A DNA stretch of 32,000 nucleotides from Nitrosopumilus maritimus SCM1. GTDB taxonomy: Archaea > Thermoproteota > Nitrososphaeria > Nitrososphaerales > Nitrosopumilaceae. The stretch is from contig NC_010085.1 of the NCBI RefSeq assembly GCF_000018465.1, positions 600,001 to 632,000 of the forward strand, in the 5' to 3' direction. The translations under genes and the position numbers were made by a program. The notes beneath the pieces were generated by a model, which ran no database searches, was not told the origin of the DNA, and worked only from the letters and a program-made list of their open reading frames with translations. Positions 1 through 23,224 of this stretch are shown here, piece by piece (positions within the stretch are counted from its first letter, which is position 1; each line of letters opens with the position of its first letter).

Positions 1-146
1 GTTAAAAATAAAATTCAAATTATCAAATATGATGAAAAAAGAATAATTTGATATTTTATCATCTTTTCTATGTCTAGCCTGAACCCAATAAGAGATCTCA
101 CTTAATCTGCATTTTTATTAATGGAAGCATTAATTTTTCTATAAAT

Positions 147-2594
147 ATGATGTTTCATATGGACTGCTCAAATTTAGAAAATTTTTTTAGTTCCAAATCT
201 GATGTACTAAAATTTCTTTTTCACAAACTCAAAAAATCCACTATCGAAGAAATGATGTTTTTTTCTATTTATGAATGGGATAAAAATAAAGAGAAAATTT
301 TGTGTGAACTTTCTAACAACTTCCCCTCTGAATTAGTTATTGTTAGAAGCTCAGCAATGGGTGAGGATTCAATACAAAAATCTGAAGCTGGAAATTATTT
401 GAGTATCCAAAATGTAAATTCTTCATCAAAGAAACAACTAGAAAAATCAATCCAAAAAGTGATTAATTCTTATCACAAGAAAGGCAATTACAATAAAAAT
501 AATCAAATTTTAATTCAAAAACAATCCCTTGATATTATTACAAGTGGAGTTATTTTTTCAAAATCTCTCAATATTGGTTCACCTTATTATATCATAAATT
601 TTGATGATGGAACAAATACTGATAGTGTTACAAAAGGTGAAGTTGGAAATATCATAAAAATTTCTAGATTTTCAGCTTCTGTAAAAATTCCATTAAAATG
701 GAAAAAACTAATCAAATCTGTTCAAGAAATAGAGAAAATCTTAGGCACTGATTTACTTGATATCGAGTTTGGAATTAATATACATAAAGAAATTATTATT
801 TTTCAAGTACGTCCGCTTACCTCTACAAAATCCATCACGATAAAAAATTTTAATAATCATTTTCCAAAATTAATAGAAACTAACAAAAAATATTTTTCAA
901 AACTTCAAAAAAATCCCTCTCTGATTGGTAACAGAACAATTTTTTCTGATATGTCTGATTGGAATCCTGCAGAAATAATTGGCAGTAATCCGAATTTGTT
1001 AGATTATTCATTATATGATTATTTGATTATGAAAAATACTTGGAGTAAAAGTAGAGAAATGTTAGGTTACACCAAAGTGAAGACTAATTCTCTTATGGTA
1101 AAGTTTGGCCAAAAACCCTATGTTGATGTAAGATCAAGTTTCAATTCATTAATTCCTGCAAAAATCCCCAAAAAATTGAAATCCAAATTGATGGCTTATT
1201 ATATGAATAAAATCCAAAATTTCCCACATCTTCATGATAAAATTGAATTTGAAATTTTATTTTCTTGTTATGATCCGACAATAAAAAATCGACTAAATGA
1301 ATTACATAAATATAATTTTTCTAAAGAAGAAATTCATCAAATAGATCAATTGTTGAAAAAATTCACTGGAGATTTAATTGATAACTTTCCTAGTATTCTG
1401 AATGCTACACTTGATGCTATGAGACAATTAAAAGAGAATCGAGAGAAAAGTCTCAAAAGCTTAATTGATGTCAAATCACCTTCGAAAATTTTGAATACTC
1501 TTGAAAAATTGCTGAATGACTGTAGAAATATTGGTACTCTTTATTTCTCAATAATGGCTAGATTAGCCTTTGTTTCTTCAATAATTTTGAAAGGATTGGA
1601 AAAAAATGGAAATTTAGACTCAAAAATATTGGAAAACTTCATGAATACTTTACAAACCCCATTATCTGATATTCAACATGACCTAAATTCTTATGTAAAT
1701 GGAGATCTTTCAAGAAAACAATTTCTTGTAAAATATGGCCATTTGCGACCTGGAACTTATGATATTACTGCATCTCGTTACGATAAAGATAAAAATTTTT
1801 TCAATAATGTAAAATATCTTAAAAATGAAATTGACAAAATTTCTTTTAATGAATTTAAATTTAAAAAAATTTTTCAAAAACACATTCCTTTTGAATCTGA
1901 GAAATTCTTGTTTTTTATAAAAGAATCAATTTCTCAAAGAGAAAAAACAAAATTTGAATTTACCAAAAATTTGAGTTCGGTGATAGAATTAATTGCAATG
2001 TTGGGTAAATTGTATGGATTTAGTAGAGAAGATGTTTCCAATTTGAGTGTCGATTTTATTCTTAGAAACAAAAACAAAAACAAAAATGAAATTCGTAAAT
2101 TATGGACAAAAAATATCTTAAAAGAAAAAAATTCTAAATCATTAAAAAATTATTTATCCCTTCCACCACTTTTAACTCATGAAAATGACTTTGATGTTCA
2201 TGAACATTATATTTCTAAACCAAATTTTATTACATCTAAAAAAATCACTGCTGATATATATACAATAAAAAATTCCAAGAAATTTTTAGATGTTGAAAAC
2301 AAAATTGTTTTGATAGAAAATGCTGACCCAGGTTATGATTGGTTATTCACAAAAAATATTTCTGGATTAATTACAAAATATGGAGGTGTTGCATCTCATA
2401 TTGCTATAAGATGTGCTGAATTAGGACTTCCAGCTGCAATTGGTTGTGGTGATATTTTATTTGAACAGTTAGAAAATACTCAAAAAGTATTACTTGACTG
2501 TAAACATCATCAAATAATTATTTTGGAAAAAAATACCGAAGATAACTATTCTGAAGAAAAAAAACTCTTAAAATCTTTAGGTTACATAAAATAA
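147..2594 (+). CDS. PEP-utilising-enzyme family dikinase-type kinase (ATP-grasp plus C-terminal phosphohistidine swivel domain); candidate Cj1418-like L-glutamine kinase
   Basis: 815-aa ORF. The N-terminal 'VIVRSSAMGEDS...EAGNY' resembles the nucleotide-binding ATP-grasp domain of PEP synthase/PPDK. The extreme C-terminus 'GGVASHIAIRCAELGLPAAIGCG' (His751, codon 2397-2399) is the phosphohistidine swivel-domain motif. No PEP/pyruvate TIM-barrel follows the His domain, which is the architecture of small-molecule dikinases (rifampicin phosphotransferase, Cj1418) rather than PpsA. Confidence 0.8.
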   Translation: MMFHMDCSNLENFFSSKSDVLKFLFHKLKKSTIEEMMFFSIYEWDKNKEKILCELSNNFPSELVIVRSSAMGEDSIQKSEAGNYLSIQNVNSSSKKQLEKSIQKVINSYHKKGNYNKNNQILIQKQSLDIITSGVIFSKSLNIGSPYYIINFDDGTNTDSVTKGEVGNIIKISRFSASVKIPLKWKKLIKSVQEIEKILGTDLLDIEFGINIHKEIIIFQVRPLTSTKSITIKNFNNHFPKLIETNKKYFSKLQKNPSLIGNRTIFSDMSDWNPAEIIGSNPNLLDYSLYDYLIMKNTWSKSREMLGYTKVKTNSLMVKFGQKPYVDVRSSFNSLIPAKIPKKLKSKLMAYYMNKIQNFPHLHDKIEFEILFSCYDPTIKNRLNELHKYNFSKEEIHQIDQLLKKFTGDLIDNFPSILNATLDAMRQLKENREKSLKSLIDVKSPSKILNTLEKLLNDCRNIGTLYFSIMARLAFVSSIILKGLEKNGNLDSKILENFMNTLQTPLSDIQHDLNSYVNGDLSRKQFLVKYGHLRPGTYDITASRYDKDKNFFNNVKYLKNEIDKISFNEFKFKKIFQKHIPFESEKFLFFIKESISQREKTKFEFTKNLSSVIELIAMLGKLYGFSREDVSNLSVDFILRNKNKNKNEIRKLWTKNILKEKNSKSLKNYLSLPPLLTHENDFDVHEHYISKPNFITSKKITADIYTIKNSKKFLDVENKIVLIENADPGYDWLFTKNISGLITKYGGVASHIAIRCAELGLPAAIGCGDILFEQLENTQKVLLDCKHHQIIILEKNTEDNYSEEKKLLKSLGYIK

Positions 2595-2645
2595 TCCCTT
2601 TAGCCGATTGTAACTGTTTTATAATGAAAATTCTCTTTAAAAATA

Positions 2646-3284
2646 TTGGTAAAAAAAATTGGCATTACTTTACGTATTGAAACTATTCAGGAATATGATG
2701 AAAAACGAGATGCTTTAAGTCATGATTGGTTTGACTTTTTTCAAAAACTAAATTGTCTTCCAGTATTAATTCCAAATAAACTCCGTGAAGTTGAATCCTT
2801 TTTAGAAGAAATGGACTTAAATGGATTGATTCTTTCAGGCGGTGATAATATTGGAGACGATCCTGAACGTGATAAAACTGAAAAAAAAATTATGACTTTT
2901 GCGATGACTAATAATATTCCTCTATTGGGAGTCTGCAGAGGTATGCAAGTAATTAACCAATTCTTCAATGGTAAAATAATTTTTGATAATTCTAATATTC
3001 ATGTTGGGAAAAATCATGTAGTTGATATTATCGATACAAAATTTTCCAATTTTTTACAAACTAATACAATGAATGTAAATTCATTTCACCATAATTTGAT
3101 TGATAAATCTTCTTTGGGGAAAAATCTAATTCCATTTGCATTTTCTTCTATTGATCAAACAATTGAGGGCTTCTATCATGAAAATTCCCCTATTTTGGGA
3201 GTCATGTGGCATCCTGAACGTGTGAATTTGAATTCAAATCAAACTGAACTTGTAAACATGTTATACTGTGATAAAATTTGGTAA
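2646..3284 (+). CDS. Class I glutamine amidotransferase-fold / peptidase C26 gamma-glutamyl hydrolase; candidate Cj1417-like gamma-glutamyl-CDP-amidate hydrolase
   Basis: 212 aa with a TTG start. The nucleophile elbow is 'LLGVCRGMQVIN' (Cys97) and 'GVMWHPE' supplies His189/Glu191 of the triad. It lies 51 nt after the kinase and overlaps the next gene by 7 nt. Confidence 0.8.
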   Translation: MVKKIGITLRIETIQEYDEKRDALSHDWFDFFQKLNCLPVLIPNKLREVESFLEEMDLNGLILSGGDNIGDDPERDKTEKKIMTFAMTNNIPLLGVCRGMQVINQFFNGKIIFDNSNIHVGKNHVVDIIDTKFSNFLQTNTMNVNSFHHNLIDKSSLGKNLIPFAFSSIDQTIEGFYHENSPILGVMWHPERVNLNSNQTELVNMLYCDKIW

Positions 3285-4069
3285 AATTAATAATTTTAGG
3301 TGCTGGTGAAGGAACTAGATTAAGACCATTAACTCAAAATTGTCCAAAATGCATGGTGAATATTTTTGGTAAATCATTATTAGAACACCAAATTAATACT
3401 GCAAAAAACTGTGGAATTGATGAAATTATTATTGTTAAAGGATTTCTTGGATATATGATCCAAATCCCAAATATTCGTTATTATGAAAATAAATATTATG
3501 ATTCTACAAATATGGTTGAAACACTCTTTTGTGCTGAAAAAGAATTGAATGAATCTGTAATTGTATCTTATGGTGATATTATTTATCAAAAAAACATCTT
3601 GAAAAAATTAATTGATTCTCCTGATGATTTTTCAGTGGTTATAGATAAAAATTGGAAAAATTACTGGCAAATTCGTTTTTCAAATATTCTTGATGATGTT
3701 GAAAGTTTACGATTAAAAGATGGTTATATAATGGATATTGGGCAAAAACCCAACTCATTAGATAATATCGACGGTCAATACATTGGTTTGATGAAATTTC
3801 AACATAATGCATTATCTACTCTAAAGACTTTTTATCATAATTCAAAAGAACAATCAAAATTAGGAACAAATCCTCTCAATCCAAAAATCCCTTTTACAAA
3901 ATCATACATGACAGATTTGTTACAAGGCCTAATTCATAATGGACAAAACATCAAAGCAATTGAAATTAATGGTGGATGGTTGGAATTGGATACTTTGAAT
4001 GATTTTGAAATTTATCAAAAACTATATGCTCAAAACTCATTAAAAGAATTTTTTAATTTGGAGAGTTGA
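3278..4069 (+). CDS. LicC-like nucleotidyltransferase (cytidylyltransferase family); candidate Cj1416-like CTP:phosphoglutamine cytidylyltransferase
   Basis: 263 aa. The N-terminal 'LIILGAGEGTRLRPLT' is the G-x-G-T-R NTP-transferase signature, and the C-terminal 'GGWLELDTLNDFE' is typical of LicC-type enzymes. It overlaps the upstream gene and is 1 nt from the downstream gene. Confidence 0.8.
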   Translation: MVKLIILGAGEGTRLRPLTQNCPKCMVNIFGKSLLEHQINTAKNCGIDEIIIVKGFLGYMIQIPNIRYYENKYYDSTNMVETLFCAEKELNESVIVSYGDIIYQKNILKKLIDSPDDFSVVIDKNWKNYWQIRFSNILDDVESLRLKDGYIMDIGQKPNSLDNIDGQYIGLMKFQHNALSTLKTFYHNSKEQSKLGTNPLNPKIPFTKSYMTDLLQGLIHNGQNIKAIEINGGWLELDTLNDFEIYQKLYAQNSLKEFFNLES

Positions 4070-4070
4070 A

Positions 4071-5186
4071 TTGAAGCCTAACATTATTTTTGTATTATTA
4101 GACGGTGCACGGTGGGATCGTATAGAAAATTCATTTGAATTTTCAGATTTAAGAAAAGATGGAATTTTTATAAATAATGTTTCAACTGTTTTTCCATACA
4201 CTTCTGGTTCACTAAATGTAATTTTTTCAGGACAATTTGGTAAAGAGAATGGTGTAGATGGCTATTACAAAGTATTGAAGTTAAAAAATTCCATACAAAT
4301 TTTGCCTGAGATTCTTCAAAATTATGGATATTTTACTGCTCGGGGGTTACTTAATGATAAATTATTGTCTCCTAGAGGATATGATCTTCGAACTGTTCAT
4401 AATGAATTTGAAGATGATCTAAATGACATTCATCCAAAATTAATTAATGATGTATTTCAAAAGGCAAATGGAAAACCTGTTTTTCTTTTTTTACATTTTA
4501 CTCGTATCCATACATTTACGGTTTCTGAAATTTTAGATAAATATGACTGGAACGATAAGACCTTTTATGATTTAGTAAATTCCAATCTTAAGAAATATGA
4601 TCAAACAATTGATGAAGCTGGGCATTATGCCAAAAAAATCACCAATACAATCAAGATTCTTGGAGAAGAGGAAAACACAATAATTATTTTCTTTTCAGAT
4701 CATGGTACTGGTGTTGGAGAAAGATATGGTGAACGAAGCTATGGTTCATTTACGTATGAAGAAACAATTAGAACTTTTTATCTTTTCACAGGGTCACTTC
4801 TTCTAAAAAATAAATTTTCTGACAAATTAAGAAGTACTTTGGATATAATGCCTACTATCCTTGAATTGTGTAAAATAGATGAAAATCTGAATCTCTTTGG
4901 AAAAAGCTTTGCAGGATTTCTCACTGGAGAAACAACTCATCTTAGTGAAAACCCATTTACTTTTTCTGAAACTGGTGCATTAGAAGGTCCATTCCCTTCT
5001 CCTGAGCATTCTAATGTTTTTTGTATTAAAACATCTAATTATAAATTAATTTATTATGTTTCTAACAATTCTTGGGAATTATTTGATTTGCAAAAAGATT
5101 TCCATGAAAAAAATAATTTGATAGGAACTTTACCATTAATTGAAGATGATTTAAAACAAAAACTCTTGAATTGGATAAATCGTTAA
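4071..5186 (+). CDS. Alkaline-phosphatase-superfamily (sulfatase-like) enzyme, cytoplasmic, Thr-type nucleophile (probably a phosphotransferase or phosphodiesterase, not a true sulfatase)
   Basis: 371 aa. Metal ligands are 'FVLLDGARWD' (Asp11) and 'FFSDHGTGVGE'. The position of the sulfatase C/S-x-P-x-R formylglycine motif reads 'PYTSGSLNVIFSG' (Cys->Thr, Pro->Gly, Arg->Leu). No signal peptide or TM segment is present. Confidence 0.7.
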   Translation: MKPNIIFVLLDGARWDRIENSFEFSDLRKDGIFINNVSTVFPYTSGSLNVIFSGQFGKENGVDGYYKVLKLKNSIQILPEILQNYGYFTARGLLNDKLLSPRGYDLRTVHNEFEDDLNDIHPKLINDVFQKANGKPVFLFLHFTRIHTFTVSEILDKYDWNDKTFYDLVNSNLKKYDQTIDEAGHYAKKITNTIKILGEEENTIIIFFSDHGTGVGERYGERSYGSFTYEETIRTFYLFTGSLLLKNKFSDKLRSTLDIMPTILELCKIDENLNLFGKSFAGFLTGETTHLSENPFTFSETGALEGPFPSPEHSNVFCIKTSNYKLIYYVSNNSWELFDLQKDFHEKNNLIGTLPLIEDDLKQKLLNWINR

Positions 5187-5260
5187 ACTCCCACTTTAAA
5201 ACTATAAAATAATTTTCTGTATTTGATTCATTGATTATTATACCAATAAAATCATCAATT

Positions 5261-6412
5261 TTATTTTTTTTTTAATAATTTAATTATGTATTCAGTTCCT
5301 ACTATCACTGATTTTCCAATGTTAAAAACTGTTTCATCACGATTATTTCTTATTTGATTTTTAATTGATTCTTGATTTGTGTATATCTCTTCAATTTTTT
5401 TTGGAATAGTTTCTAACTCTGTTGTTGGCACAATTATTCCAATTTTATTCCTAATACTTTCTTCAATTGGTATTTGTGAAATATCTTTAAAGTTAGGATT
5501 GCGCATTTTTTTTGGTGTATCGATATACATTACTGGTTTTTCAAAACCAAATGCAAATTCTAATGCAACACCTGACCAATCTGAAATCATAATATCTGAT
5601 TGTAAAAATGAATCAAAATACGATATATTTTGCTCTAAGAAAAAATTAGAATTTTTTGAAAATGTTTTTAAAATATGTTCAACTTTCTTTTTTGATTTTT
5701 TTTGTGTCATTGGATGAATGCGAAGAATTACTTTATATCCTGAATTTAATAATATGTTGATTATTTTTTCAGAAACTGTTTCAAATAACCCATCTTTTCC
5801 CCATGATGGTGCAATTATAATTTGATATGAATCTTTTTGTTTTAAAGTTATGTCTGTATTTTTTGAATGTATTTTTAGTAGATTATCTAAATGTGTATAT
5901 CCAAATTGAACTAATTTTTTTGCTTTTAAATTATATAGTTTCTCTGCTTCTTTTATTTCATTAATCTGATAATTTCCTACACAAAAAATAGAATCAAAAT
6001 AATCAAAGGCTTCTTTTCTGTATCCTAAATGTGTACTGATCATTGAATGAAACATGTAGATGTAGTGCACATTATGCATTTTTGATCTTTTAATATGAAA
6101 TGCTTCTAGATCTGGCATGGTCATAATCAAAATATTTGCCTGTAGTTCTAAGAAAAATTTTGTTCTAGCAACCCCTTCTCCAACATAAAATGCTTTAATT
6201 TTTTTATTTTTTGAAATTATGTCTAATTCTTCTTTACTAGATGTAACATAACAAATACTTACATCATAATTTTTAATTAATTCATCAATAAATGATTCAA
6301 AAATAATTGTTGAGTTTTTGTCTTCTGAATAGAAAACAATTTGTTTTTCTGCTATATCTAAATTTGAAAATTCTTTTAGATCGGTCGATTCATTTTTAGA
6401 AAAAAAACCCAA
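5261..6412 (-). CDS. TagB/TagF-family CDP-glycerol glycerophosphotransferase-like enzyme
   Basis: 383 aa with a TTG start. Family blocks are 'IIIAPSWGKDG' (cf. YAPTWR), 'ILRIHPMTQKK' (catalytic His region) and 'FLQSDIMISDWSGVALEFAFGFEKPVMYID' (cf. LITDYSSv.fDf...KPiif). Confidence 0.8.
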   Translation of the reverse strand: MGFFSKNESTDLKEFSNLDIAEKQIVFYSEDKNSTIIFESFIDELIKNYDVSICYVTSSKEELDIISKNKKIKAFYVGEGVARTKFFLELQANILIMTMPDLEAFHIKRSKMHNVHYIYMFHSMISTHLGYRKEAFDYFDSIFCVGNYQINEIKEAEKLYNLKAKKLVQFGYTHLDNLLKIHSKNTDITLKQKDSYQIIIAPSWGKDGLFETVSEKIINILLNSGYKVILRIHPMTQKKSKKKVEHILKTFSKNSNFFLEQNISYFDSFLQSDIMISDWSGVALEFAFGFEKPVMYIDTPKKMRNPNFKDISQIPIEESIRNKIGIIVPTTELETIPKKIEEIYTNQESIKNQIRNNRDETVFNIGKSVIVGTEYIIKLLKKK

Positions 6413-6587
6413 ATTAATTATCTTATATCACTGCTGTTAATTAGTATTAGTCTTAACTAAACCGAAAAAATTTATAATGTTTCTTCCATGAATATGTGTT
6501 GATTTTTAAAAGATTCATTTTGCTTACTGCTCAATTTTTTATCTGTACTGTATCAAAACATCATAAATATAATTAATTTGCCTAAAT

Positions 6588-8129
6588 ATGGTCTCTTTGT
6601 TTTCTGAACCTATTTCAAAATTCCCTTTTCATCCATTTTTAATTGGATTTTTTTTCGTTATTTCATTATTTTATAATAATATACGTGTACTAAATTTTGA
6701 CGAAATCCTAATTCCTCTAATTATTGTACTTGGAATCATTACAAGTATTTGGATTTTGATAAATCTTATTGTAAAAAATAATTTAAAATCCTCCCTTATT
6801 TTATCTCTAGTTTTAATTTTATTTTTTTCTTATGGACATATTTATCTAGAAATTGATCATTTCACTATAAATGAATTTGATATAGGGAAGCATCGATTTC
6901 TTTTAATTCCATTTTTTTCTATGTTTATTTTAGGAACTATTTTACTAATTCGAACGAAGAAAATATTAGATAATACTACATTAATTACTAATACCATTTT
7001 TTTAGTTTTAGTAGTTATAGTGTTAGTTAATATTCAATTATATTATTTTGAAAACCCTTCTTATTTTTATCTCAATCAAAACATTGAATCAAATACAATT
7101 TCAAATAATATAAACACATTTCCAAATATTTATTTCATCGTACTTGATGGCTATCCTGGATATCGTAGTCTTGAACTATCGCATCAAAATGATGGTGAAT
7201 TTTTTAATTATTTTAAAAATAATGGGTTTTTTGTTTCTGAAAATAGTTTTAGTAATTATCAAGTTACGCATTTATCTGTTCCCTCTACATTGAATTTAGA
7301 TTATCTCCATCCTCTTGCAGAAATTAAAGATGGTGTTTATGATCAACGTGATTTTCATTTATTAGGAAATGATAACAAGTTGATGAACTTTTTAAAATCT
7401 AACGGATATCTAATTGTTAATTTTGATTCTAGTTGGAGTTTTTCAAGAGACATGAAGCATGCTGATCTACAACTTTGTGGTGATAATCAATTTTTAAATT
7501 CTGAATTCCTAATTATGTTAACAAAAACTAGTATGCTAAATCCTGTTTATACAAAAGCCTTTGAAAATGATCTAGTTGAACTAAGACTTTGTGCATTTGA
7601 CCAAATACTAGATATTGATAAACGTGTATCGGAACCTTTTTTTGTTTTCTCTCATATGTATATGCCCCATCCTCCTTACTTATTTGGTCCTAATGGAGAA
7701 ATTTTATCTCCTGATGAATTAGATTTAATTGCATATTCACCTGAAAAACAGTCTGCATATTTTGATCAAGTCAAATTTCTTAATAAAAAAATCCCTCAAA
7801 TTGTAAATAATTTACTCGATTCTGAAAATCCTCCAATAATAGTAATACAATCTGATCATGGTTCGGCATTTTTAATGGGTGAAGACGACACAAATTGGAA
7901 ACATCCTGACAATAACATGCTTCTTGAACGAATGAATATAATCAATTTTATTTATTTGCCTGATTCTCCTGATATTCTTTATGATGAAATTACTCCTGTC
8001 AACACATTTCGAATCATACTTAATCATTACTTTGGAACTAATTTTGAAATACTAAATGATAATTCATATATTTTTAATGGCACTGATTTTGAGGATGTTA
8101 CTATCAAACTGAAAAATATAGAAAATTAG
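6588..8129 (+). CDS. Polytopic membrane protein with C-terminal alkaline-phosphatase-superfamily domain (LtaS/EptA-like architecture)
   Basis: 513 aa. About 5 hydrophobic segments occupy the first ~160 aa, followed by 'IYFIVLDGYPGY' (metal-binding Asp) and 'IIVIQSDHGSAF'. No C/S-x-P-x-R sulfatase motif was seen. Confidence 0.65.
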   Translation: MVSLFSEPISKFPFHPFLIGFFFVISLFYNNIRVLNFDEILIPLIIVLGIITSIWILINLIVKNNLKSSLILSLVLILFFSYGHIYLEIDHFTINEFDIGKHRFLLIPFFSMFILGTILLIRTKKILDNTTLITNTIFLVLVVIVLVNIQLYYFENPSYFYLNQNIESNTISNNINTFPNIYFIVLDGYPGYRSLELSHQNDGEFFNYFKNNGFFVSENSFSNYQVTHLSVPSTLNLDYLHPLAEIKDGVYDQRDFHLLGNDNKLMNFLKSNGYLIVNFDSSWSFSRDMKHADLQLCGDNQFLNSEFLIMLTKTSMLNPVYTKAFENDLVELRLCAFDQILDIDKRVSEPFFVFSHMYMPHPPYLFGPNGEILSPDELDLIAYSPEKQSAYFDQVKFLNKKIPQIVNNLLDSENPPIIVIQSDHGSAFLMGEDDTNWKHPDNNMLLERMNIINFIYLPDSPDILYDEITPVNTFRIILNHYFGTNFEILNDNSYIFNGTDFEDVTIKLKNIEN

Positions 8130-8180
8130 ACTATAATTTAGACTTCAATATGTTTAGGAAGATGTTTTTAGATCTAATTC

Positions 8181-8897
8181 ATGATTTCACATATACATTC
8201 TCCTAACTTTAATATAATTAGCAAATTTTTGCAAAACAGAAATCAATTGCTAGTAATTTTTGATGTTGAAGGTGTTTTGTATGATGAAGAATATCTTCCA
8301 ATCCTTGCAGAGAAACTCAATAAACAAGATGAGATTTGGGCAATTACAAAACAAGGAATTCAAGGAAAAATTAACTGGGAAGAAGGACTTCGAACTAGAG
8401 TTGCTGCTCTAAAGGGCCTTGATGAAAAAACATGTCAAGAAGTTTCTGATGCATTACCCATTATGACTGGTGCAAAAGAAGCATGTAGAGCATTAAAAGC
8501 TGCTGGTTGGAAGTTGATGGCTGTTTCAGGCGGATTTACACTGATGATGGAGAGATTAAAAGACGAATTGGGATTAGATTATGTTTATTCCAATGAATTA
8601 ATTTTCAAAGACGGAAAACTGGATGGCGTAAAAATCAATGTTGATTCAGACAAATCAAAATCTGCACGAATTAAAATTGAAGAATGGGGAGAAAAGAAAG
8701 AGAATATTGTATGTGTTGTAGATGGCGCAAACGATGTAAAATTATTTGATATTTGTGGATTGGGAATCGCATATCGTGCACAAGACTTGGTAAAAGATTT
8801 GGCAACCACAACTCTGGAAGAAAAGGATCTTTCAAAAATTTTGGATATTATTAACAAACATTACAAATTAGAATTAGAATCTCCAACTCCTGCATAA
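8181..8897 (+). CDS. serB: Phosphoserine phosphatase (HAD superfamily, SerB type)
   Basis: 238 aa, collinear by eye with the Methanocaldococcus PSP layout: motif I 'VIFDVEGVL', 'AVSGGFTLMMERLKDELGLDYVYSNELIFKDGKLDG', and 'VVDGANDVKLF'. Motif I is D-x-E rather than D-x-D. Confidence 0.8.
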   Translation: MISHIHSPNFNIISKFLQNRNQLLVIFDVEGVLYDEEYLPILAEKLNKQDEIWAITKQGIQGKINWEEGLRTRVAALKGLDEKTCQEVSDALPIMTGAKEACRALKAAGWKLMAVSGGFTLMMERLKDELGLDYVYSNELIFKDGKLDGVKINVDSDKSKSARIKIEEWGEKKENIVCVVDGANDVKLFDICGLGIAYRAQDLVKDLATTTLEEKDLSKILDIINKHYKLELESPTPA

Positions 8898-21595: not shown

Positions 21596-23224
21596 GTGTC
21601 GTCTCAATCTAGATTAGAAATCCAAGGTCAGGCACCATTCAAGCAATCTGGCGTCTATGAGGCTCAAATTGCAATCGTTGGCAGCCGACCTTCTGATGCA
21701 CAAATTAAATCTAAACAATTCACATCTCTTTGGCGTGGAAATTTCCATCTACGAGTTAAAGATGGAGTATTTTCTGAAACAATTGGTTCTCCTGAAAACC
21801 CAATTCCATCATCTGTCTTAGAATTAGAAACAATTTGGATAGTTGTAACTGATCTGTTTTCATCACTACATTCTGTATTTGATGTCCCATTATCAAAACC
21901 AAAATCTTCCCCAAAACCTCCTGAATCAAAACCTTCTGAAACTAAATCAAATCTTGAAACTCCAAAACAAACACGTTCAACAAAATCAACTCAAAGCACT
22001 CCTGGCGTACGAGGTAGCCCTGGTGAAAAAGGCGCACCTGGATTACAAGGTCCAACTGGTGACAAAGGTCCACAAGGTCCTCCCGGCCCAACTGGTCCTC
22101 CCGGTGACAAAGGTCCTGACGGTCCACAAGGTCCTCCCGGTGACAAAGGTCCAACTGGTGACAAAGGCCCTGCAGGTGACAAAGGTATTGCTGGAGATAA
22201 AGGAATTACTGGTGACAAAGGAATTACTGGAGATAAAGGTGATAAAGGTGACAAAGGAATTCCTGGTCCCGTTGGTGATAAAGGTGACAAAGGAGCAACT
22301 GGTCCAATCGGAGAAAAAGGTCCAACTGGATTAAAAGGCCCAATCGGTGAAAAAGGAGAAAAAGGTCCAACTGGTCCTCCCGGCGACAAAGGATTATCTG
22401 GATTAAAAGGTCCTCCCGGTGAAAAAGGAGAAAAAGGTCCAACTGGTCCTCCCGGCGATAAAGGTTTAACTGGTCCTGTCGGAACTCCTGGAGAAAAAGG
22501 TCCAACCGGACAAGCAGGAGTTCAAGGAGAAAAAGGAATTCAAGGTGGTCCTGGTCCAATCGGAGAAAAAGGTCCAGCAGGTCCAGTTGGTGACAAAGGT
22601 CCAATCGGTCCAGCAGGTCCTCTTGGCGACAAAGGATTATCTGGTCCAACCGGAGTTCCTGGTGACAAAGGTCCAATCGGTCCTCCTGGTCCAATCGGAG
22701 AAAAAGGTCCTAAAGGAACTGAAGGTCCAATCGGAGAAAAAGGTCCACAAGGTCCACAAGGTCCAGCTGGTGCTAAAGGATTAACAGGCGTTCCTGGTCC
22801 ACAAGGTGAAAAAGGAGAAAAAGGTCCAACAGGTCCGCCCGGAGAAAAAGGATTAACAGGTCCAGCAGGTCCACCTGGAGAAATTGGTACAGTTGGTCCA
22901 CAAGGTTCTCAAGGAGAACGCGGTCCAACAGGTCCATCAGGAGAAAAAGGTCCACAAGGTCCACAAGGAATTCAAGGTCCGCAAGGAGAACGCGGCCCAA
23001 CTGGTCCAATCGGTTCTATTGGTGAAGCAGGTCCTCGTGGAGAACAAGGCCCATTAGGTCCAGCAGGACCAAGAGGTCCACCCGGTCCACCAGGCGAAAA
23101 AGGTCCATCAGGTGGAATGTCTTCTGAACAAAAAGCATTGTTCAAAGAATTGCTAGAAATACTAACTGAGAAAAATATCATTAGCACTGAAGAACAAATC
23201 AAACTAATGAGTTATCTTTACTAG
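21596..23224 (+). CDS. Collagen-like (Gly-X-Y triple-helix repeat) protein
   Basis: 542 aa with a GTG start. It comprises a ~100-aa N-terminal domain, an S/T/P/K-rich linker, 123 uninterrupted G-X-Y triplets (hand count) and a 36-aa helical tail, '[37 protein letters not shown]'. No signal peptide or TM segment was seen. Confidence 0.85.
22004..23110 (+). repeat. Coding 9-nt (G-X-Y) periodic repeat region, 123 triplets
   Basis: Runs from 'GVRGSPGEK' to 'GEKGPS' with Gly at every third residue and no interruption. It includes an exact 41-nt repeat at 22346-22386 and 22418-22458 ([14 protein letters not shown]). The region leaves many alternative and antisense frames open. Confidence 0.9.

What the first reader, a model, noticed from the sequence alone, without database searches (positions are those of the whole stretch)
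147..4069. Operon with the domain content and order of the Campylobacter phosphoramidate (P-N) donor pathway, in an archaeal context
Three co-directional genes are tightly spaced (51-nt gap, then a 7-nt overlap).
- The first encodes an 815-aa ATP-grasp protein with a C-terminal phosphohistidine swivel domain (His751) and no PEP/pyruvate barrel.
- The second encodes a 212-aa class-I amidotransferase-fold hydrolase with Cys97/His189/Glu191.
- The third encodes a 263-aa LicC-like nucleotidyltransferase.

C. jejuni uses the same triad in the same transcriptional order to make cytidine diphosphoramidate, the donor of the capsular O-methyl-phosphoramidate group. Those enzymes are Cj1418 (L-glutamine kinase, a dikinase-type PEP-utilising-family enzyme), Cj1417 (gamma-glutamyl-CDP-amidate hydrolase) and Cj1416 (CTP:phosphoglutamine cytidylyltransferase).

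An ordinary CDP-glycerol or CDP-choline route explains neither the dikinase nor the amidohydrolase. I know of no description of phosphoramidate glycan chemistry in archaea. No Cj1415-like (APS-kinase-fold) 3'-kinase and no methyltransferases are visible here, so the donor or end product may differ from the Campylobacter one.
Basis: partly seen in the sequence, partly recalled or inferred. Interest (0 to 1): 0.8.

Follow-up and report, generated by a model that had tools for sequence, protein, structure and literature searches.

The report
Phosphoramidate-donor operon in a marine archaeon
The ammonia-oxidising archaeon Nitrosopumilus maritimus carries the three-enzyme gene set that Campylobacter uses to make a rare phosphorus–nitrogen sugar decoration, but with different downstream genes, which suggests this chemistry is far more widespread than the Campylobacter literature assumes.

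Summary
The window is from Nitrosopumilus maritimus SCM1, and the three ORFs, their spacing and the named catalytic residues are exactly as described.

- ORF1 is a full-length member of NCBIfam PRK05849 (996 bits). JGI names relatives at 51–54% identity "glutamine kinase".
- ORF2's best family by far is gamma-glutamyl-CDP-amidate hydrolase, although it scores below the curated cutoff.
- ORF3 is a LicC/PntC-type cytidylyltransferase. JGI names some of its relatives "L-glutamine-phosphate cytidylyltransferase".
- The gene order kinase→hydrolase→transferase is conserved in most of 80 loci from many bacterial and archaeal phyla.
- The three enzymes also occur as pairwise fusions, and as one triple-fusion protein in a giant-virus contig.

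Corrections to the finding:
- The kinase family is not rare in archaea. It is found in at least 588 species genomes, and a 2024 preprint already predicted such a cluster in archaeal Borg elements.
- The operon is longer than stated. A fourth gene (4071–5186) starts one base after ORF3 and follows the triad in close relatives. It is sulfatase-family, with Thr in place of the formylglycine residue.
- A TagF-like gene and a membrane LtaS/EptA-like gene follow.

No Cj1415-type kinase is present, so the transfer step probably differs. I could not compare directly with the Campylobacter sequences. No P–N compound has been shown in this organism.

The parts
147..2594 (+). ORF1, 815 aa. Member of the L-glutamine-kinase family (Cj1418-type). 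It has an ATP-grasp domain, a helical substrate domain and a C-terminal phosphohistidine swivel domain (His751), with no PEP/pyruvate barrel.
   Evidence: NF004508 PRK05849.1 at 996 bits, cutoff 501, full length. Pfam PPDK_N plus PEP-utilizers. AF2 model pLDDT 89. The only full-length structural match is rifampin phosphotransferase, at 14-16% identity. JGI names relatives at 51-54% identity 'glutamine kinase'. H751 and 50 other residues are invariant in 44 diverse members.
2646..3284 (+). ORF2, 212 aa. Class-I amidotransferase-fold hydrolase (Cys97/His189/Glu191), the candidate gamma-glutamyl-CDP-amidate hydrolase (Cj1417-type).
   Evidence: The best NCBIfam family is NF045546 GCDPHdlase: 121 bits, E 5e-35, covering 3-187 of 198 positions. 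The next family scores 54 bits and PuuD 28 bits. The score is below the cutoff of 250. A homolog is adjacent or fused to the kinase in 77 of 82 loci. Fusions P0320 and P0339.
3278..4069 (+). ORF3, 263 aa. LicC/PntC-type cytidylyltransferase, the candidate CTP:phosphoglutamine cytidylyltransferase (Cj1416-type).
   Evidence: Pfam NTP_transferase. AF2 model pLDDT 96.6. Nearest solved folds are PntC 6pd2 (TM 0.78) and LicC 1jyk. JGI names relatives at 56-60% identity 'L-glutamine-phosphate cytidylyltransferase'. Homologs lie beside the kinase and hydrolase in 59 of 82 loci. N-terminal fusions to the kinase, P0300 and P0338.
4071..5186 (+). ORF4, 371 aa. Soluble alkaline-phosphatase/sulfatase-superfamily enzyme with Thr44 at the formylglycine position. 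It is the fourth gene of the operon and a candidate phospho(amidate)transferase or phosphodiesterase.
   Evidence: It starts 1 nt after the ORF3 stop. Pfam Sulfatase at 86 bits. The alignment to sulfatase 5g2v puts 'PYTSGSL' where C/S-x-P-x-R should be. D11, T44, D210 and H211 are invariant in 4 triad-linked copies. It lies directly after K-H-NT in L001, L004, L019, L088 and L094, in P0468's contig, and as a 458-aa variant in L093. It occurs without the triad in L095.
5261..6412 (-). ORF5, 383 aa. TagF-like CDP-alcohol-type phosphotransferase (Glyphos_transf), convergent with the operon. It is a candidate enzyme for transferring the phosphoramidate group from CDP-amidate to a glycan.
   Evidence: Pfam PF04464 at 58 bits. 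Close homologs (126-329 bits) lie next to the triad in L006, L048, L051, L060, L064, L073, L074 and L075. A more distant TagF-like gene follows K-H-NT on a Vibrio plasmid.
6588..8129 (+). ORF6, 513 aa. It has 5-6 N-terminal TM helices plus a C-terminal sulfatase/AlkP-like domain, an LtaS/EptA-like architecture. Possible extracytoplasmic transferase; membership in the system is tentative.
   Evidence: Hydrophobic segments span residues 17-157. The C-terminal 353 aa hit Pfam Sulfatase at 33.5 bits, cutoff 25. Homologs are adjacent to the kinase in L001 and L088 (divergent) and near it in L018.
1..8130 (.). Low-GC end of a surface-glycan island (GC 0.23-0.30, against 0.30-0.37 in most of the rest of the window). 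Housekeeping genes (serB, cofE and others) begin at 8181.
   Evidence: Composition profile. Annotation of downstream genes. Relatives place the module among glycosyltransferases, epimerases and methyltransferases.

Best explanation
ORF1-ORF3 encode the nucleoside-diphosphoramidate pathway known from Campylobacter jejuni.

- ORF3 would couple L-glutamine phosphate to CTP, giving CDP-L-glutamine.
- ORF2, using its Cys97/His189/Glu191 triad, would cleave off glutamate and leave cytidine diphosphoramidate (CDP-NH2).

The family assignments and the functional coupling of the three genes are shown here. The substrates are inferred from the Campylobacter enzymology.

In this thaumarchaeal lineage the donor is probably not 3'-phosphorylated, because no Cj1415-type kinase is present. 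Instead it would be used directly by other enzymes of the island: the co-transcribed AlkP-superfamily enzyme ORF4 (Thr nucleophile) and/or the TagF-like ORF5, which normally transfers X-phosphate from CDP-X with release of CMP. The target would be a hydroxyl of a surface glycan, most plausibly the S-layer N-glycans or an exopolysaccharide. This last step is inference only.
For: Family level:
- ORF1 scores 996 bits, full length, on PRK05849. It scores 52 bits or less on PEP synthase, PPDK and RPH models.
- ORF2's best family is the Cj1417-derived model.
- JGI gives relatives of ORF1 and ORF3 the names of the Campylobacter enzymes.

Coupling:
- A hydrolase homolog is adjacent or fused to the kinase in 77 of 82 loci. 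A nucleotidyltransferase homolog is present in 59 of 82. The usual order is K-H-NT, across more than 20 phyla.
- Fusions exist as K+H, NT+K and cytidylyltransferase+K. A giant-virus MAG has an H+NT+K triple fusion.
- K-H-NT-APS-kinase, the order of cj1418c-cj1415c, occurs in L025, L049, L058, L072 and L081.

Structure:
- ORF1 has the three-domain dikinase-type architecture without a barrel.
- ORF3 groups with cytidylyltransferases for small phospho-headgroups.

Downstream genes:
- ORF4 is separated from ORF3 by 1 nt and follows the triad in at least 7 related loci, with its catalytic residues invariant.
- ORF5-type TagF homologs flank the triad in 8 other loci.

Acceptor: the N. maritimus S-layer carries 17 glycans per monomer, of unknown chemistry (PMC11153153).
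Against: - No direct comparison with Cj1418, Cj1417 or Cj1416 was possible. PRK05849 is labelled only 'hypothetical protein'. PGAP calls these homologs 'PEP-utilizing enzyme' and 'phosphocholine cytidylyltransferase family'.
- ORF2 reaches only 121 of the 250 bits required for NCBI's equivalog call.
- ORF3's nearest solved structure is a phosphonate-specific cytidylyltransferase, and this organism makes methylphosphonate (PMC8931226).
- No Cj1415-like kinase is in the window or in close relatives, and no methyltransferase is in the window.
- An ORF4 homolog exists without the triad in L095.
- The apparent exclusion between TagF-like and APS-kinase genes is not significant (p = 0.19).
- No P-N compound has been reported from any archaeon: no paper in the library mentions Nitrosopumilus together with phosphoramidate.
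Confidence: 0.7

Rival explanations
1. The triad is homologous to the Campylobacter one and works by the same logic, a glutamine-borne group activated on a nucleotide. But in this lineage the product or its destination differs. Examples are CDP-L-glutamine itself as the donor, free phosphoramidate released by ORF4 acting as a pyrophosphatase, or a lipid or small-molecule acceptor rather than a glycan.
For: - The 3'-kinase, the methyltransferases and the 426-aa protein that accompanies them elsewhere are absent here.
- The downstream partners of the triad vary widely across loci: CDP-alcohol phosphatidyltransferases in 12, TagF-like genes in 9, sulfatase-family genes in 12, formyltransferase-like genes in 16.
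- ORF4 is soluble, and the relatives of its fold include nucleotide pyrophosphatases (faint Phosphodiest hit).
Against: - The hydrolase is retained next to the kinase in nearly all loci. That argues the glutamate is removed, so CDP-amidate is the common product.
- The island is otherwise devoted to glycan synthesis.
Confidence: 0.17
2. The locus serves methylphosphonate decoration. ORF3 is a PntC-like phosphonate cytidylyltransferase making CMP-methylphosphonate. ORF4, ORF5 and ORF6 attach it to polysaccharide. ORF1 and ORF2 have an unrelated or auxiliary role.
For: - ORF3's top structural match is the phosphonate-specific cytidylyltransferase PntC.
- N. maritimus is an experimentally confirmed phosphonate producer (PMC8931226; PMC8942020).
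- One ORF3 relative is named 'phosphoenolpyruvate phosphomutase' by JGI.
- Borg elements have a PEP-mutase fused to a similar transferase.
Against: - No PEP mutase or MpnS is in the 32-kb window. None was recorded within ±7-10 kb in L001, L088, L093 or L094.
- ORF3 homologs are locked in K-H-NT order, or fused to the kinase, across phyla. The phosphonate route does not explain this.
- LicC scores nearly as well as PntC, so the fold match does not define the substrate.
Confidence: 0.08
3. This is an ordinary teichoic-acid-like CDP-glycerol or CDP-choline route, with an unrelated PEP-synthase paralog and a stand-alone gamma-glutamyl hydrolase that happen to lie next to it.
For: - PGAP and NCBI use generic names: 'PEP-utilizing enzyme', 'gamma-glutamyl-gamma-aminobutyrate hydrolase family', 'phosphocholine cytidylyltransferase family', 'CDP-glycerol glycerophosphotransferase family'.
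- Older JGI labels call ORF3 relatives 'choline kinase'.
Against: - ORF1 lacks the PEP/pyruvate barrel. It scores 52 bits or less on PEP synthase models whose cutoffs are 598-1063.
- PuuD scores 28 bits, against 121 for the CDP-amidate hydrolase model.
- Chance adjacency cannot explain conservation in 77 of 82 loci, or the fusions.
Confidence: 0.03

Closest known systems
Campylobacter jejuni cytidine-diphosphoramidate pathway (Cj1418 L-glutamine kinase, Cj1416 CTP:phosphoglutamine cytidylyltransferase, Cj1417 gamma-glutamyl-CDP-amidate hydrolase), part of O-methyl phosphoramidate capsule modification
   Same: The three protein families and the transcriptional order (K, H, NT) are the same. So are the phosphohistidine swivel domain, the Cys-His-Glu triad and the location in a surface-glycan locus (pathway as summarised).
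   Different: - The window has no Cj1415-type 3'-kinase and no SAM methyltransferase.
- Whether homologs of the Cj1421/Cj1422 transferases are present could not be tested.
- An AlkP-superfamily gene is co-transcribed instead, and a TagF-like gene and an LtaS/EptA-like gene follow.
- ORF2 is too divergent for NCBI's equivalog cutoff.
- The host is an archaeon.
Predicted MeOPN-like cluster of Borg extrachromosomal elements of Methanoperedens (bioRxiv 10.1101/2024.11.05.622173)
   Same: It is an archaeal context with an in-silico assignment of glutamine kinase, cytidylyltransferase and hydrolase genes in a glycan region.
   Different: - The Borg cluster sits on an extrachromosomal element and includes a PEP-mutase fusion.
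- This one is chromosomal, in a cultured model organism.
- Neither has biochemical support.
Rifampin phosphotransferase (RPH-Lm, PDB 5hv1/5fbs) and PEP synthase/PPDK
   Same: They share the ATP-grasp domain, a substrate domain and a swivelling phosphohistidine domain. RPH is the only full-length structural match.
   Different: - Identity is 14-16%.
- The RPH NCBIfam model scores 20 bits against a cutoff of 999.
- The central domain is conserved within the PRK05849 family, not with RPH.
- There is no PEP/pyruvate barrel.
LicC (CTP:phosphocholine) and PntC (phosphonate) cytidylyltransferases
   Same: ORF3 has the same fold and the N-terminal G-x-G-x-R-L nucleotide-binding motif. TM-scores are 0.7-0.8.
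   Different: Identity is 20-25%. ORF3's family is syntenic with, or fused to, the kinase and hydrolase, which LicC and PntC are not.
TagF/TarF CDP-glycerol glycerophosphotransferases and EptA/LtaS-type AlkP-superfamily phosphotransferases
   Same: ORF5 matches Glyphos_transf. ORF4 and ORF6 carry the AlkP/sulfatase core with Asp/His metal ligands and, in ORF4, a Thr nucleophile.
   Different: - No solved homolog of ORF5 is detectable by sequence.
- ORF4 is soluble and lacks the sulfatase C/S-x-P-x-R motif.
- The donor substrate would be CDP-amidate rather than CDP-glycerol or a phospholipid. This is inference.

Membership tests
L-glutamine kinase (Cj1418 type; NCBIfam PRK05849.1) | Three-domain architecture: N-terminal ATP-grasp, central helical substrate domain, C-terminal phosphohistidine swivel domain, and no PEP/pyruvate TIM barrel | tested here: met
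   Pfam PPDK_N plus PEP-utilizers only. AF2 model and full-length match to the equally three-domain rifampin phosphotransferase.
L-glutamine kinase (Cj1418 type; NCBIfam PRK05849.1) | Score above the curated family cutoff over the full length | tested here: met
   996 bits against a cutoff of 501, covering model positions 2-789 of 789. The model itself is named only 'hypothetical protein'. Its link to Cj1418 rests on JGI 'glutamine kinase' names for relatives at 51-54% identity and on synteny.
L-glutamine kinase (Cj1418 type; NCBIfam PRK05849.1) | Catalytic histidine in the swivel-domain G-G-x-x-S-H motif | tested here: met
   His751 in YGGVASH. G746, G747, S750 and H751 are invariant in 44 diverse members.
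L-glutamine kinase (Cj1418 type; NCBIfam PRK05849.1) | Direct sequence or structure similarity to Cj1418 itself, and reciprocal-best relationship | not tested
   The Cj1418 sequence was not obtainable, no PDB entry exists, and AFDB50 was unavailable.
L-glutamine kinase (Cj1418 type; NCBIfam PRK05849.1) | ATP + L-Gln -> AMP + Pi + L-glutamine phosphate | not testable with these tools
   Requires an enzyme assay.
gamma-glutamyl-CDP-amidate hydrolase (Cj1417; NCBIfam NF045546) | Class-I amidotransferase fold with a Cys-His-Glu triad | tested here: met
   Pfam Peptidase_C26/GATase. C97, H189 and E191.
gamma-glutamyl-CDP-amidate hydrolase (Cj1417; NCBIfam NF045546) | Score at or above NCBI's equivalog cutoff (250 bits) | tested here: not met
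   121 bits (E 5e-35). It is the best family by 67 bits and covers 3-187 of 198 positions, so ORF2 is a distant relative rather than a curated equivalog.
gamma-glutamyl-CDP-amidate hydrolase (Cj1417; NCBIfam NF045546) | Genetic coupling to the kinase | tested here: met
   Adjacent or fused in 77 of 82 loci. K+H fusions. Triple fusion.
CTP:phosphoglutamine cytidylyltransferase (Cj1416) | GT-A nucleotidyltransferase of the small-headgroup (LicC/PntC) type, coupled to the kinase and hydrolase | tested here: met
   Fold matches. Present in 59 of 82 loci in K-H-NT order. NT+K fusions. JGI name for relatives.
CTP:phosphoglutamine cytidylyltransferase (Cj1416) | Specificity for L-glutamine phosphate over phosphocholine, phosphonates or sugar-1-phosphates | not testable with these tools
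   No NCBIfam model or solved structure of Cj1416 was found.
Complete Campylobacter MeOPN system (Cj1415-Cj1422) | APS-kinase-fold cytidine diphosphoramidate 3'-kinase (Cj1415) | tested here: not met
   There is no homolog in the 32-kb window, nor within ±7-10 kb in L001, L088, L093 or L094. It is present in 17 of 81 other loci.
Complete Campylobacter MeOPN system (Cj1415-Cj1422) | SAM-dependent methyltransferases (Cj1419/Cj1420) | tested here: inconclusive
   None lies in window positions 1-8130. Methyltransferases lie 0.3-1.7 kb upstream of the kinase in relatives L001 and L093. The SCM1 upstream flank is not available.
Complete Campylobacter MeOPN system (Cj1415-Cj1422) | Cj1421/Cj1422-type MeOPN transferases | not tested
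   No reference sequence or model was available.
PEP synthase / pyruvate phosphate dikinase | C-terminal PEP/pyruvate-binding TIM barrel, and score above the family cutoffs | tested here: not met
   There is no barrel domain. Scores are 52 bits or less against cutoffs of 598-1063, and only over the swivel domain.
Formylglycine-dependent sulfatase (for ORF4) | C/S-x-P-x-R signature at the nucleophile position | tested here: not met
   ORF4 has T-S-G-S-L at that position. T44 is invariant in orthologs.

The most novel reading that the evidence does not exclude
Marine ammonia-oxidising archaea, and hundreds of other archaeal and bacterial species that carry the K-H-NT triad, decorate their cell surface with phosphoramidate groups. 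The thaumarchaeal lineage does this by a route not yet described: CDP-amidate is used directly, without 3'-phosphorylation, by an AlkP-superfamily (ORF4) and/or TagF-like (ORF5) phosphoramidate transferase. P-N-bonded phosphorus would then be an overlooked component of microbial envelopes and possibly of marine dissolved organic phosphorus and nitrogen.
Probability: 0.3. Interest if true: 0.8.

Novelty: new variant of a known kind. Interest (0 to 1): 0.6.

Why it matters
O-methyl phosphoramidate has been treated as a Campylobacter peculiarity. A 2019 review says it is known only from Campylobacter (PMC6429109). A 2022 review calls the kinase 'C. jejuni-specific' (PMC9561416).

Here the same biosynthetic core turns up in a cultured, globally important nitrifier whose S-layer glycans are chemically uncharacterised. 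It also occurs in at least 588 species-level genomes across both prokaryotic domains, and in a giant-virus contig.

If the chemistry is real, three things follow:
- P-N glycan or lipid modifications are widespread.
- There are at least two ways of transferring the group, with and without the 3'-kinase.
- N. maritimus offers a direct test through 15N-ammonium labelling and 31P NMR.

It would also affect how 'sulfatase' and 'PEP-utilizing enzyme' genes in marine metagenomes are read.

Tried and rejected
- **Campylobacter sequences.** I could not obtain them. The Raushel papers are not held. Checking 10 family members of about 780 aa for names found only an Ekhidna entry. The genome scan returned the best 80 of at least 588 loci, none of them from Campylobacter. 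AFDB50 was unavailable.
- **SCM1 flank upstream of position 1.** ORF1 is not on record, and ORF4 is found only on assemblies of about 4 kb or less.
- **Sigma-70 promoter and terminator scan.** It was uninformative: 62 sites found against 60.5 expected, and the host is archaeal.
- **Rfam.** No RNA families were found in the window.
- **ORF6 versus the hypothetical gene after the Vibrio triad.** There is no similarity.
- **TagF-like versus APS-kinase exclusivity.** The overlap is 0 among 9 and 17 of 81 loci. This is suggestive but not significant (Fisher p = 0.19).
- **ORF4 as a dedicated component.** It is not exclusive to the triad: in one of three independently chosen homologs the triad is absent. 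Shared contig lengths link 9 of the listed ORF4 homologs to listed ORF1 homologs.
- **Rejected readings.** PEP synthase, rifampicin phosphotransferase and PuuD are rejected on family scores. A true sulfatase role for ORF4 is rejected on the missing motif.

Full report
**Origin and observation**

The window is from Nitrosopumilus maritimus SCM1. ORF1 is 100% identical to a 'conserved hypothetical protein' of that organism on a 1,645,259-bp contig. ORF4 is identical to its 'sulfatase family protein'.

The gap is 51 nt and the overlap 7 nt, and the residues His751, Cys97, His189 and Glu191 are as stated. Pfam gives three results:
- ORF1 has a partial PPDK_N (ATP-grasp) match plus the PEP-utilizers mobile domain, and no PEP/pyruvate barrel.
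- ORF2 matches Peptidase_C26/GATase.
- ORF3 matches NTP_transferase.

**What the three proteins are**

*ORF1.* It matches NCBIfam NF004508 (PRK05849.1) over the full length at 996 bits, against a cutoff of 501. PEP synthase, PPDK, PTS enzyme I and rifamycin phosphotransferase models score 52 bits or less, and only on the swivel domain. That model is named 'hypothetical protein', so it does not by itself say 'glutamine kinase'. However, JGI applies the name 'glutamine kinase' to several full-length relatives at 51-54% identity.

An AlphaFold model (pLDDT 89) has one kind of full-length structural neighbour, rifampin phosphotransferase. That enzyme shares the ATP-grasp / helical substrate domain / His-swivel layout, at 14-16% identity. 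PEP synthase aligns over only about 240 columns. Across 44 family members at 33-50% identity, 51 positions are invariant. They include the G-G-x-x-S-H motif and many residues in the central domain, which suggests one conserved substrate.

*ORF2.* Its best family is NF045546, gamma-glutamyl-CDP-amidate hydrolase, at 121 bits and nearly full length. GMP-synthase-type amidotransferases score 54 bits and PuuD 28 bits. The 121 bits fall short of the 250-bit equivalog cutoff.

*ORF3.* It is generic by sequence models. Its model (pLDDT 96.6) is closest to the phosphonate cytidylyltransferase PntC and to LicC. JGI names relatives at 56-60% identity either 'choline kinase' (the older label) or 'L-glutamine-phosphate cytidylyltransferase'.

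**Evidence that the three work together**

The kinase family is large: 1,516 clusters at 50% identity with E ≤ 1e-30. A scan of one genome per species found at least 588 loci. The best 80 include:
- Archaea: Marine Group I thaumarchaeotes, Woese-, Pace- and Nanoarchaeota, Altiarchaeales, Methanosarcinales and Haloferax elongans.
- Bacteria: Bacteroidota, Clostridia, Planctomycetota, Legionella, candidate-phyla-radiation lineages and others.

In 82 loci, an ORF2 homolog lies directly after the kinase or is fused to it in 77. An ORF3 homolog is present in 59, usually in the order kinase-hydrolase-transferase.

Natural fusions join the activities:
- kinase with a C-terminal hydrolase domain (P0320, P0339);
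- kinase with an N-terminal ORF3-type transferase (P0300, P0338);
- kinase with an N-terminal HIGH-motif cytidylyltransferase (P0243 and others).

A giant-virus MAG encodes a single 1,167-aa protein with hydrolase (12-191), transferase (207-434) and kinase (443-1167) domains.

An unbiased clustering of neighbours found an APS-kinase-family gene (NF004041, 171 bits) in 17 of 81 loci. In L025, L049, L058, L072 and L081 it gives the order K-H-NT-APS kinase. This matches cj1418c-cj1415c, where all four genes are needed for O-methyl phosphoramidate and cj1415 lies downstream of cj1416 (PMC3907429). An Azospirillum plasmid shows APS kinase-methyltransferase-K-H-NT.

Together these results make chance adjacency, a PEP-synthase paralog or a stand-alone gamma-glutamyl hydrolase untenable.

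**What is different here**

The window has no APS-kinase-like gene anywhere in its 32 kb. The close relatives L001, L088, L093 and L094 have none within ±7-10 kb.

*ORF4 (4071-5186).* This fourth gene starts one base after ORF3. It is annotated as a sulfatase, but it aligns Thr44 ('PYTSGSL') to the formylglycine position and lacks C/S-x-P-x-R. D11, T44, D210 and H211 are invariant in four triad-linked copies. It follows K-H-NT in L001, L004, L019, L088 and L094 and in the contig of P0468, and as a longer variant in L093. In a reverse test on ORF4 homologs not chosen through the kinase, two of three sat directly after the triad and one did not.

*ORF5 (5261-6412, minus strand).* This is a TagF-like Glyphos_transf protein. 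Its close homologs flank the triad in eight other loci from unrelated phyla. A Vibrio plasmid has K-H-NT followed by a more distant TagF-like gene.

*ORF6 (6588-8129).* It combines 5-6 TM helices with a sulfatase/AlkP-like domain, an LtaS/EptA-type layout. Homologs lie beside the kinase in L001 and L088.

The whole block (1-8130) is low in GC and ends a glycan island; housekeeping genes start at 8181.

**Mechanism proposed**

By analogy with the Campylobacter enzymology (pathway as summarised):
1. ORF1 makes L-glutamine phosphate through phospho-His751.
2. ORF3 makes CDP-L-glutamine.
3. ORF2 releases glutamate and leaves cytidine diphosphoramidate.

Without a 3'-kinase, I propose that the donor is used directly. 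A TagF-type enzyme transfers X-phosphate from CDP-X with release of CMP. An AlkP-type enzyme with a Thr nucleophile can carry a phosphoryl-type group covalently. Either could place phosphoramidate on a glycan hydroxyl.

A plausible acceptor is the dense N-glycan coat of the N. maritimus S-layer, which has 17 glycans per monomer of unknown chemical structure (PMC11153153). Glycoproteomics has so far detected no glycoprotein in a marine AOA (PMC12153357).

The family assignments and gene coupling are shown. The substrates and the transfer step are inferred.

**Rivals**

The main rival keeps the homology but changes the product or the acceptor.

The phosphonate rival rests on two facts: ORF3 resembles PntC, and the organism makes methylphosphonate. 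No PEP mutase is in the window or was recorded in the flanks of relatives. This rival also does not explain why ORF3's family is locked to the kinase and hydrolase.

The CDP-glycerol or CDP-choline reading is contradicted by the scores, the synteny and the fusions.

**Comparison with what is known, and novelty**

The core is a member of a known kind, the Campylobacter nucleoside-diphosphoramidate pathway. The thaumarchaeal locus is a variant of it, with a different downstream complement.

A 2024 preprint predicts such a cluster in Borg elements, and many archaeal genomes carry the triad, some with the APS-kinase gene. No paper in the library links Nitrosopumilus to phosphoramidate. Curated annotation still uses generic names.

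**Limits**

- There was no direct alignment to the Campylobacter proteins.
- ORF2 is below the equivalog cutoff.
- The upstream flank is unseen.
- There is no chemical evidence for a P-N bond in this organism.

Noticed in passing
window 21596-23224 (+): A 542-aa ORF consists largely of collagen-like G-x-y triplets (Pfam Collagen, E 8e-61). It produces a local GC peak of 0.51 in an otherwise roughly 33% GC genome. A collagen triple-helix repeat protein is unusual in a marine archaeon.
   Followed up: partly
L090 4708-8208 (giant-virus MAG contig IMGVR_UViG_GVMAG-M-3300009496-9_000001): A single 1,167-aa ORF fuses the hydrolase, nucleotidyltransferase and kinase domains of the triad. A giant virus may therefore encode the whole CDP-amidate pathway in one protein.
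   Followed up: partly
P0243, P0246, P0258, P0259, P0266; loci such as L005, L006, L009 and L016: Many kinases carry an N-terminal HIGH-motif (TagD/RfaE-type) cytidylyltransferase domain while the locus still encodes a separate ORF3-type transferase. That gives two unrelated nucleotidyltransferases per system. The role of the second one is unexplained.
   Followed up: no
L005, L006, L009, L012, L016, L022, L023, L049, L063, L066, L080: An uncharacterised protein of about 426 aa, with only a faint SGNH/GDSL-like signal, recurs next to the triad in 11 loci, often beside the APS-kinase and methyltransferase genes. It could be the transferase of the kinase-dependent variant. It has no homolog in the window.
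   Followed up: partly
L001, L088, L094, L095 (gene pair directly after the ORF4 homolog, opposite strand): A formyltransferase-N-domain protein (about 228 aa) and an unannotated protein of about 195-206 aa always follow the ORF4 homolog in Nitrosopumilus-like contigs, even where the triad is absent (L095). In SCM1 this position is taken by the TagF-like ORF5.
   Followed up: no
window 2646, 3278, 4071, 5261-6412(-): Four consecutive genes of the island (ORF2-ORF5) appear to start with TTG. Independent gene calls on short SCM1 assemblies give the same protein lengths.
   Followed up: no
L008, L011, L012, L015-L017, L020, L022, L031, L033, L064: CDP-alcohol phosphatidyltransferase-family membrane proteins accompany the triad in 12 loci, mostly archaeal. 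This hints that in some lineages the activated group may go onto a lipid rather than a glycan.
   Followed up: no
contig of P0468; L083; L084: Sulfate-activation genes (ATP sulfurylase/APS kinase, cysDN) and sulfotransferases lie close to the triad in several loci. Some of the APS-kinase-like neighbours may therefore serve PAPS synthesis rather than 3'-phosphorylation of CDP-amidate.
   Followed up: no
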